From: Ionaspis alba
Lineage: Eukaryota
Assembly (NCBI GenBank): GCA_964255285.1
Contig: CAXUUL010000051.1
Coordinates: 1 to 45,743, forward strand
Direction of reading: 5' to 3'
DNA length: 45,743 nt
Shown piece by piece: positions 13,052 to 14,030 of this stretch. The translations under genes and the position numbers were made by a program. How positions within the stretch are numbered: position 1 is the stretch's first letter; every line of letters begins with the position of its first letter. The notes beneath the pieces were generated by a model. The model made no database searches, was not told the origin of the DNA, and was given only the letters and a program-made list of their open reading frames with translations.

Positions 13052-14030
13052 CTACCAACCGGTCACACCATCCCCAAGATGCGGTACCGGAATAACGTTC
13101 TCCATAACTTCGGCGAGCTGTTTACCACCAGGCACGACTTTCCCCAAAATTTCCTTGCCGACCCCCTCGATAACCTGAGCTGTTTTCCAAGTCTTGTCAA
13201 TGATTTCTAAGCCCTTCCAGTCGGCGTTCTTTAGGATATCCGTCTGTCCACAGTTGCAGACACCCTGAATACAGCTCGACACTCTGCCCTCTACCTTAGG
13301 ACACGTGCAGTCCTGTGGTTTCGAGCAAGTTTTCCTATAAGATCGCAGTATATCAGTATGATTCCTTCACAAAGCAGAAAGTAGGGTTTAGGGCATACAA
13401 GTCTGCGGTTTGCTTCTTAATATCATCACGTGTTGGAGCTTTGACCTCTTTTCCACCAGGGGAGGGTTTCGGTTGTCCCTTCGGACCTGGCGGCTTAGGA
13501 TCAGTCTTTCCAGGTGGTTTGGTTTCGGGTTTGCCAGGTGGCTTGGACTCAGGCTTGCCAGGTGGCTTAGGTTCGGGCTTGCTAGGCGCTTTTGGTGGAG
13601 CTGCTTTGGGTGGTTGCACCTTAGGCGGTGGCTTGACTGAACCTGGCTTGGGTACCGACTTGGGTAGTGTCTTCGGTATGGGAATCTTTGCAGGGGACCG
13701 CTTCGAGTGGAATGGGTATCTATCGGACCCGCCGACAGAAGTACGTCGTGCATGAGCTAATCCTGGATAGCTTCGCACTGAGATTGGCTTTCCAGAAAGC
13801 AGTTCCTGTGCCATCATGGCAATCTCCCCTACTGCTTCCGGATGGTTGCGATATAGTTCAGAAAGATAATGTGCTCCGGCAGCAGCGTCGTGGGCTAGTA
13901 CTTTTGCTGTGCCACGTTGATAAAGCGAAGTATCTCGCCGGTAGAGAGGTAAGTCATGATCTTCGGAAGCCGCGGAACAGAGAGACGTGAAGGAGACCAA
14001 TATGAAGAGTACGACCCGCGAATACTTCAT
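13052..14030 (-). CDS. Unrecognised secreted precursor, 304 aa: signal peptide, dibasic sites, Pro/Lys repeat linker, Cys6 module, C-terminal tail
   Basis: ATG at 14030 begins MKYSRVVLFILVSFTSLCSA. Intron 13335-13398 (GTATGC...CTGAT...TAG) joins in frame to exon 13334-13052; 632+283 = 915 nt. Confidence 0.75.
13485..13580 (-). repeat. Coding tandem repeat, 4 x 24 bp (KPEPKPPG / KPESKPPG / KPETKPPG / KTDPKPPG)
   Basis: Units at 13485-13508, 13509-13532, 13533-13556 and 13557-13580 are visible in both DNA and protein. Confidence 0.9.

What the first reader, a model, noticed from the sequence alone, without database searches (positions are those of the whole stretch)
13052..14030. Orphan secreted multi-module precursor inside a housekeeping block (best candidate for something undescribed)
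Seen: splicing one canonical 64-nt intron merges two apparently unrelated ORFs into a 304-aa protein. It has a signal peptide, a pro-region with basic sites (LYRR, LYQR, ARR, SKR), a ~90-aa Pro/Lys-rich stalk starting right after KR, a six-Cys module and a ~65-aa tail. It is the only gene between BUD13 and RPT6 that I cannot assign to a conserved family. Established: Kex2 cuts after KR/RR in fungal toxin, effector and peptide precursors. Inference: a lineage-specific, proteolytically matured effector or antimicrobial protein, possibly releasing several peptides, inserted between TAD2 and MEC1.
Basis: partly seen in the sequence, partly recalled or inferred. Interest (0 to 1): 0.72.

Follow-up and report, generated by a model that had tools for sequence, protein, structure and literature searches.

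The report
Orphan secreted fungal protein, defensin-like module
A real-looking two-exon fungal gene, sitting between two housekeeping genes that are direct neighbours in other fungi, encodes a secreted protein with no detectable relatives whose small cysteine module loosely resembles defensins; such orphan secreted proteins are common in fungi and its function is untested.

Summary
The gene model holds. A 64-nt intron (13335-13398, minus strand) with good donor, branch and acceptor joins two frames into 304 aa: signal peptide, pro-region with LYRR/LYQR/RR/KR, 90-aa Pro/Lys stalk, six-Cys module, 65-aa tail. Splicing and expression are untested; no RNA run was listed. No homolog was found in any search, and the gene is single-copy in its genome. 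In 5 of 7 loci carrying both TAD2 and MEC1 (4 lineages) these genes are head-to-head 233-559 nt apart, against about 2.1 kb here, so the gene is probably an insertion. The genome encodes a kexin. The six-Cys model weakly matches only defensin/scorpion-toxin-type folds (Z 2.1-2.5) but has CxC where CSαβ needs CxxxC, so it is not a typical defensin. All good Kex2 sites lie before the stalk. The likely product is one cationic 193-aa chain, not several repeated peptides. Best reading: a lineage-restricted, Kex2-matured secreted protein acting on other cells' surfaces, possibly antimicrobial (about 40%). The scan had not noted it on other DNA. It is a new member of a common class, of modest interest.

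The parts
13399..14030 (-). Exon 1 (residues 1-211): signal peptide, pro-region, Pro/Lys stalk
   Evidence: best codon score of six frames
13335..13398 (-). 64-nt intron, donor GTATGC, branch ACTGAT, acceptor TAG (predicted, not seen in RNA)
13052..13334 (-). Exon 2 (residues 211-304 and stop): six-Cys module and tail
   Evidence: best codon score of six frames
13971..14030 (-). Signal peptide, about residues 1-20 (basic n-region, hydrophobic core, small-residue cleavage site)
   Evidence: best 9-mer hydropathy 3.28 at residue 6; SignalP not available
13698..13970 (-). Pro-region, residues 21-111. LYRR (13935-13946) and LYQR (13914-13925) form a tandem D-x-x-L-Y-x-R; RR at 13743-13748; final KR at 13698-13703
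   Evidence: LxxR as a Kex2 motif from 10.1101/2020.05.27.120113
13428..13697 (-). Pro/Lys stalk, residues 112-201 (36% P, 22% K, net +16), with a 24-nt tandem repeat (3.4 copies at 13506-13586)
13250..13327 (-). Six-Cys module, residues 214-239, spacing C-x5-C-x-C-x9-C-x4-C-x-C; modelled as a short helical turn plus beta-hairpin
13055..13249 (-). 65-aa tail, net -2, with a modestly amphipathic stretch at residues 264-292
   Evidence: 2.1% of 2000 shuffles reach the 29-residue moment; the 18-residue moment is not significant; AF2 pLDDT 43-47
14151..14157 (-). TATA-like element 127 nt upstream of the ATG (consensus match only)
12383..12847 (-). Neighbour TAD2, 5' part; its probable ATG is only about 200 nt downstream of the orphan's stop
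14980..22908 (+). Neighbour MEC1/ATR; head-to-head with TAD2 in other fungi

Best explanation
A lineage-restricted gene inserted into the divergent TAD2-MEC1 interval encodes a secreted pre-pro-protein. Shown from sequence: signal peptide, basic motifs, stalk, six-Cys module, no membrane anchor, and a kexin in the genome. Inferred: signal peptidase removes residues 1-20. Kex2 trims the pro-region at LxxR, RR and finally KR110-111. This releases one 193-aa, 20 kDa chain (pI 9.6, net +15). Most speculative step: the cationic, extended Pro/Lys stalk binds anionic cell surfaces or matrix and presents a disulfide-bonded mini-domain plus an amphipathic tail that act on neighbouring microbes or partner cells. 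It would work like a modular Pro-rich plus Cys-rich antimicrobial or effector protein. My odds: real secreted gene about 85%, Kex2 maturation about 70%, this mode of action about 40%.
For: Gene model. Kexin with S8 and P domains in G000 contig C49. LxxR, KR and RR are the motifs used for Kex2-processed fungal effectors (passages). All 4 of 48,161 chains reaching Z>=2 against the 34-aa model are small disulfide-rich chains, among them a scorpion alpha-KTx-like peptide and a plant defensin (Z 2.1-2.5, rmsd 2.2-3.1 over 28-32 residues). Foldseek's top hit is hongotoxin 1 (TMq 0.55, E 4.9; Z 2.2 on re-alignment). Insertion shown by synteny. Lichen-forming fungi carry hundreds of predicted secreted antimicrobial proteins, 2,727 of 29,043 being singletons. 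Shrimp penaeidins show that cationic Pro-rich plus six-Cys is a working antimicrobial design.
Against: No transcript, peptide or activity evidence. The fold matches are far below significance, rest on a single-sequence model (pLDDT 76, pTM 0.39), and had no control with another six-Cys peptide. The defining CxxxC is replaced by CxC, and there is no Gly two residues before Cys4. The module is only net +1 and the tail net -2. The K2PP rule fails at 5 of 5 motifs. An atypical fungal defensin relative, Zytrisin-1, had no antimicrobial activity when tested. Codon scores are weak: the two exon frames rank 59 and 61 of 182 long frames, and an antisense frame over the pro-region scores higher than the coding frame.
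Confidence: 0.4

Rival explanations
1. Structural or adhesive extracellular protein: the Pro/Lys stalk is a rod in the wall or extracellular matrix, and the Cys module and tail cross-link it or bind glycans, without antagonistic activity.
For: The 90-aa repetitive stalk is nearly half of the mature chain, and the Cys module is not cationic. Weak Foldseek rows include a CBM14 chitin-binding module (TMq 0.45, E 5.6).
Against: No GPI or TM signal. Ser+Thr is only 11% in the stalk and there is no N-glycosylation sequon, unlike ordinary fungal wall mannoproteins (from recall). No Pfam wall-protein family matches. The gene is absent at this position in relatives.
Confidence: 0.25
2. Multi-peptide precursor: the short pieces released from the pro-region (12, 7, 57 and 15 aa) are themselves bioactive, or the 57-aa piece pairs with the C-terminal part as in two-chain killer toxins.
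For: Four candidate sites cut the pro-region into defined pieces. Two pieces end in a similar YP..H..[KR]R motif. K1 toxin is processed into a two-chain form (abstract listing only).
Against: There are no three or more repeated cores between Kex2 sites, which is the KEP criterion. The pro-region has no Cys for an inter-chain disulfide. The 57-aa piece is no more amphipathic than its shuffles.
Confidence: 0.1
3. Secreted protease inhibitor: the C-P-K-V stretch after Cys3 is a canonical trypsin-binding loop on a small disulfide scaffold.
For: The best PDB sequence hit of the module is the Kazal inhibitor infestin over this stretch (E 0.73). A cyclotide trypsin inhibitor appears among weak Foldseek rows.
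Against: Both hits are non-significant. No Kazal Pfam match at E up to 5. The Cys spacing differs from Kazal (from recall).
Confidence: 0.08
4. The intron is not spliced, or the locus is a young or decaying gene: the product, if any, is the 225-aa Pro/Lys protein and exon 2 is non-coding.
For: No RNA evidence was available. Codon scores are weak. No homolog exists to show selection. 7% of shuffles give such an intron by chance.
Against: An even six Cys cluster within 26 residues right after the junction; 93 open codons in the correct phase; best-of-six codon score for both exons; intact signal peptide, A at -3 and a TATA-like box.
Confidence: 0.12

Closest known systems
Kex2-processed pro-domain (K2PP) fungal effectors such as SnTox3, ToxA and Fol SIX proteins (10.1101/2020.05.27.120113)
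   Same: Signal peptide, N-terminal pro-region ending in LxxR/KR, Cys-containing mature part, no sequence relatives.
   Different: The mature part begins with a 90-aa disordered Pro/Lys stalk, so the published in-silico rule fails. No host-pathogen context is known.
CSαβ fungal defensin-like peptides, especially the atypical lambda-Zytrisins (PMC5234102; PMC4165938)
   Same: Six Cys ending in C-x4-C-x-C, a predicted beta-hairpin after a short helical turn, and weak structural matches that include CSαβ-type peptides.
   Different: Cys2-Cys3 spacing is 1; typical is 3 and lambda-Zytrisins range from 2 to 9. No Gly at -2 of Cys4. The module is internal, with no dibasic sites to release it. No sequence similarity.
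Penaeidins, including LvBigPEN, of shrimp (PMC9680095)
   Same: Architectural analogy: signal peptide, cationic Pro-rich or repeat region, then a six-Cys domain; BigPEN is 269 aa.
   Different: No homology and no Pfam match. There is a pro-region and a 65-aa tail. Penaeidins are reported only from penaeid shrimps.
KEX2-processed repeat proteins (KEPs; PMC6339444)
   Same: Signal peptide and several Kex2-type sites; an XP dipeptide follows the final KR.
   Different: There are no three or more repeated motifs between cleavage sites; the repeats lie inside the uncut stalk.

Membership tests
CSαβ defensins / fungal defensin-like peptides | Six cysteines with Cys5-X-Cys6 | tested here: met
   C237-x-C239, six Cys in 26 residues; framework from PMC5234102
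CSαβ defensins / fungal defensin-like peptides | Cys2-X3-Cys3 spanning an alpha-helix | tested here: not met
   C220-x-C222; only a 3-residue helical turn in the model
CSαβ defensins / fungal defensin-like peptides | CSαβ fold with disulfides 1-4, 2-5, 3-6 | tested here: inconclusive
   Z 2.1-2.5 matches only; Foldseek E 4.9 or worse; connectivity not reported by the tools
CSαβ defensins / fungal defensin-like peptides | Gamma-core GXC at the fourth Cys (usual, not obligatory) | tested here: not met
   Residues before C232 are S-S; a GXC sits at C237 instead (definition)
K2PP effectors | Signal peptide and LxxR/KR/RR motif in the first half | tested here: met
   (hydropathy only, no SignalP)
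K2PP effectors | Pro-region at least two-thirds disorder-promoting and more so than the C-terminal part | tested here: not met
   LYRR/LYQR reach 0.67-0.71 but the C-terminal part is 0.72; RR and KR sites reach only 0.50-0.62 (rule)
K2PP effectors | Pro-domain removed by Kex2 | not testable with these tools
   a kexin gene is present; cleavage needs an assay
KEPs | At least three repeated motifs separated by KEX2 sites | tested here: not met
   only a twofold 7-residue motif at 26-39; stalk repeats have no KR/RR between them (criterion)
GPI or transmembrane cell-wall proteins | C-terminal GPI signal or transmembrane helix | tested here: not met
   highest 19-residue hydropathy after residue 25 is 0.74; last 20 residues 0.28
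Kazal-type protease inhibitors | Match to the Kazal domain profile | tested here: inconclusive
   no Pfam family at E up to 5; infestin hit E 0.73
Penaeidins | Homologous PEN domain | tested here: not met
   no Pfam or sequence match; analogy of layout only

The most novel reading that the evidence does not exclude
A fungal counterpart, by convergence, of Pro-rich plus Cys-rich modular antimicrobials. A Kex2-activated cationic Pro/Lys rod carries a minimal defensin-like domain, stabilised by a CxC/CxC disulfide ladder instead of CxxxC/CxC, and a membrane-active amphipathic tail. The gene was gained inside a conserved bidirectional promoter. It would define a new small disulfide fold variant and a new fungal antimicrobial architecture.
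Probability: 0.12. Interest if true: 0.6.

Novelty: new member of a known kind. Interest (0 to 1): 0.3.

Why it matters
As it stands, it is one more orphan secreted protein of a kind fungi have by the hundred. It is cleanly defined, though: an exact gene model, a predicted mature N-terminus and a 26-residue module that can be synthesised. If the module folds like a defensin with a contracted CxC motif, it would widen the known range of CSαβ-like scaffolds and offer a new antimicrobial lead. The insertion also separates TAD2 from a promoter region it shares with MEC1 in other fungi, leaving about 200 nt for a terminator and a promoter.

Tried and rejected
RNA evidence: no RNA holder was listed; both runs laid were contigs and showed no joint. 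This is no evidence on expression.

P0003, the only non-self hit in 1.84 billion representatives (E 8e-7), is an ankyrin-repeat protein. Its score is a sum of weak repeats (best pairwise 24 bits), so it was rejected. TAL-effector rows in the PDB sequence search are the same artefact, with no single stretch passing.

Fold searches with the whole exon-2 model gave nothing because the tail is low-confidence. The ESM Atlas gave no usable hit for exon 2 or residues 1-125. The pro-region had no PDB sequence match. Viral and prokaryotic contig scans with exon 2 found no relative, so there is no sign of horizontal transfer.

A complex prediction of pro-region 40-111 with the exon-2 product returned no answer (score 0.01).

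No RIP signature, flanking direct repeat or second copy of the inserted DNA was found, so the insertion mechanism is unknown. A Cys-spacing scan of the fetched loci (1.3 million residues) found only this gene and 2 unrelated-looking matches that were not followed up. No Cys-pattern scan of the whole own genome was obtained, so very distant paralogs with this spacing are not excluded.

Literature searches showed no paper describing this architecture in fungi. The library lacks most subscription journals, and supplements (for example the lichen AMP tables) were not seen.

Full report
Observation. The window is contig C51 of an 18.3-Mb, 1,282-contig fungal assembly. Earlier scan notes call it a lichen-type fungus; I did not test that. 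On the minus strand, an ATG at 14030 opens a 225-codon frame, and a second stop-free frame of 104 codons ends at 13052. Removing 13398-13335 (64 nt; donor GTATGC, branch ACTGAT, acceptor TAG) joins 632 and 283 nt in frame to give 304 aa. Eight GT-AG combinations give products over 270 aa, but only this one keeps all six cysteines. A strict intron rule found 15 candidates in the window, none in 10.2 kb of conserved coding exons on either strand, and at least one in 7% of 500 shuffles of this region. The rule misses most true introns, so it tests specificity only. Both exons have the best codon score of their six frames. The scores are weak, though: ranks 59 and 61 of 182 long frames, and an antisense frame over the pro-region scores higher than the coding frame. 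The ATG has A at -3, with a TATA-like element 127 nt upstream. A contig of DNA run X1 matches 12980-14345 without a difference, though X1 may be the source sample. No RNA run was listed, so splicing is a prediction.

Anatomy. Residues 1-20 have signal-peptide character (best 9-mer hydropathy 3.28), and there is no other hydrophobic segment, so no TM helix or GPI signal. The pro-region (21-111) holds a tandem D-x-x-L-Y-x-R (LYRR, LYQR), RR at 95-96 and KR at 110-111. After KR comes a 90-aa stalk (36% Pro, 22% Lys, net +16), partly built from a 24-nt tandem repeat. Then follow a 12-aa linker, the module C-x5-C-x-C-x9-C-x4-C-x-C (net +1) and a 65-aa tail (net -2). Residues 264-292 of the tail are modestly amphipathic: 2.1% of 2,000 shuffles reach that moment, while the 18-residue measure reached 11%, and four such tests were run. 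Beyond residue 111 the only dibasic pair is KK 205-206. The simplest product is therefore a single 193-aa chain of 20 kDa and pI 9.6. The genome encodes a kexin, with S8 and P domains and a C-terminal hydrophobic stretch.

Homologs. None was found. Pfam gave no family for either exon or for the sub-parts. HMMER of exon 2 over 1.84 billion representatives returned 2 proteins: the gene's own fragment and an ankyrin-repeat artefact. Word-seeded searches of 5.8 billion clusters found only the gene itself for residues 1-112 (115-368 aa; 369-2000 aa) and nothing for exon 2 in proteins of 164-2000 aa. The N-terminal part was not run through the full HMMER library. The ESM Atlas and scans of metagenome, viral and prokaryotic contigs with exon 2 were blank. 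The gene is single-copy in its genome by protein and DNA search. No earlier scan finding resembles it. These collections are weak for intron-containing fungal genes: this gene itself is stored as two unspliced fragments. Orphan status is therefore provisional.

Synteny. A TAD2 query fetched 80 loci. Seven carry MEC1. In 5 of the 7 (L003, L004, L005, L006, L034) TAD2 and MEC1 are head-to-head as here; L004 and L005 are 98-99% identical, so this is 4 lineages. L008 and L012 have other orders. ATG-to-ATG distances are 373, 233, 233, 559 and 292 nt, against about 2,130 nt in the window. The gaps hold no independent long frame; the 169-codon frame in L006 runs into TAD2's own first exon. None of the 80 loci matches either orphan part (best E 1.3). 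L003 and L006 also keep the CSM3-complex I subunit-TAD2 order. Gain in this lineage is the most parsimonious reading. Its age is open, because the relatives are distant (MEC1 exon 1 is 30-43% identical). No RIP signature or flanking repeat marks a mechanism. The surrounding genes are housekeeping by Pfam.

Structure. Single-sequence AlphaFold2 models the Cys module with moderate confidence (34 aa, pLDDT 76, pTM 0.39) as a short helical turn plus a beta-hairpin, and leaves the tail unresolved. Against 48,161 solved chains, 4 reach Z of 2 or more: two cystine-dense peptides, a scorpion alpha-KTx-like peptide and a plant defensin (Z 2.1-2.5, rmsd 2.2-3.1, 28-32 residues). That the first two are also CSαβ-type is my recall. 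Foldseek lists 8 weak rows, led by hongotoxin 1 (TMq 0.55, E 4.9), but also CBM14, Dkk4, NCR13 and a follistatin domain. The signal is consistent but far below significance, and no control peptide was run. The CSαβ framework needs Cys2-X3-Cys3 and Cys5-X-Cys6 (PMC5234102; parts 1-2 of 4 read). This module has the second motif only. Atypical lambda-Zytrisins vary from 2 to 9 residues at Cys2-Cys3, and here it is 1. It may work like a small disulfide-stabilised defensin-type domain, but it is not a member by definition.

Mechanism. Best reading (0.4): secretion, Kex2 removal of the pro-region, and release of one cationic chain whose stalk binds anionic surfaces and presents the Cys module and amphipathic tail to neighbouring microbes or partner cells. 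The first step rests on sequence, the second on motifs plus the kexin gene, and the last is inference by analogy. LxxR, KR and RR are the motifs of Kex2-processed effectors (10.1101/2020.05.27.120113; passages and methods section). However, that paper's rule fails here at 5 of 5 motifs: LYRR and LYQR fail because the stalk makes the C-terminal part more disordered than the pro-region, and the RR and KR sites also fall short of two-thirds. Penaeidins show the Pro-rich plus six-Cys layout in antimicrobials (PMC9680095, passages), with no homology. Rivals are a structural or adhesive matrix protein (0.25), an unspliced or non-functional young gene (0.12), a multi-peptide or two-chain precursor (0.10) and a protease inhibitor (0.08). 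The KEP criterion of three or more repeated cores is not met (PMC6339444, passages).

Novelty. Orphan secreted candidates are common: in 80 lichen-forming fungi, 2,727 of 29,043 predicted antimicrobial proteins are singletons, and assignment depends on taxon sampling (10.64898/2026.09.03.749242; abstract, one section and passages). Other papers consulted: PMC4165938 (part 1 of 3), PMC5116183 (passages) and PMC13525654 (abstract). My searches showed no description of this exact architecture in fungi. I rate it a new member of a known kind, interest 0.3. There is a 12% chance of the bolder reading, a new modular fungal antimicrobial with a contracted defensin-like scaffold.

Noticed in passing
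window 12847-14980 versus L003, L004, L005, L006, L034: TAD2 and MEC1 form a head-to-head pair 233-559 nt apart in 4 fungal lineages, within a conserved CSM3-complex I subunit-TAD2-MEC1 block (full order in L003 and L006). Here TAD2 has only about 200 nt upstream before the orphan's stop.
   Followed up: partly
window 14357-14881 (+): A 174-codon ATG frame upstream of MEC1, divergent from the orphan; no Pfam hit, codon score 0.03; probably spurious.
   Followed up: partly
window 12847 and 14980: The predicted TAD2 and MEC1 N-termini look 15-20 residues shorter than in the relatives' loci; short upstream exons were not looked for.
   Followed up: no
window 12922-12942 and 13812-13832: A 21-nt inverted repeat, 86% complementary, one arm in the TAD2-orphan gap and one in the pro-region; probably chance.
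   Followed up: no
window 9000-19000, runs X1 and X2: The same fungus appears at about 100-fold contig depth in one run and 2-3-fold in a second sample of the same study. X1 shows alternative letters and small indels in the flanks but none listed in 12980-14345 (the tables were cut).
   Followed up: no
window 33919-34506 and about ten other places: Runs of about 100 N; at 33919-34506 the sequence on both sides of the gap looks duplicated, an assembly scaffolding feature.
   Followed up: no
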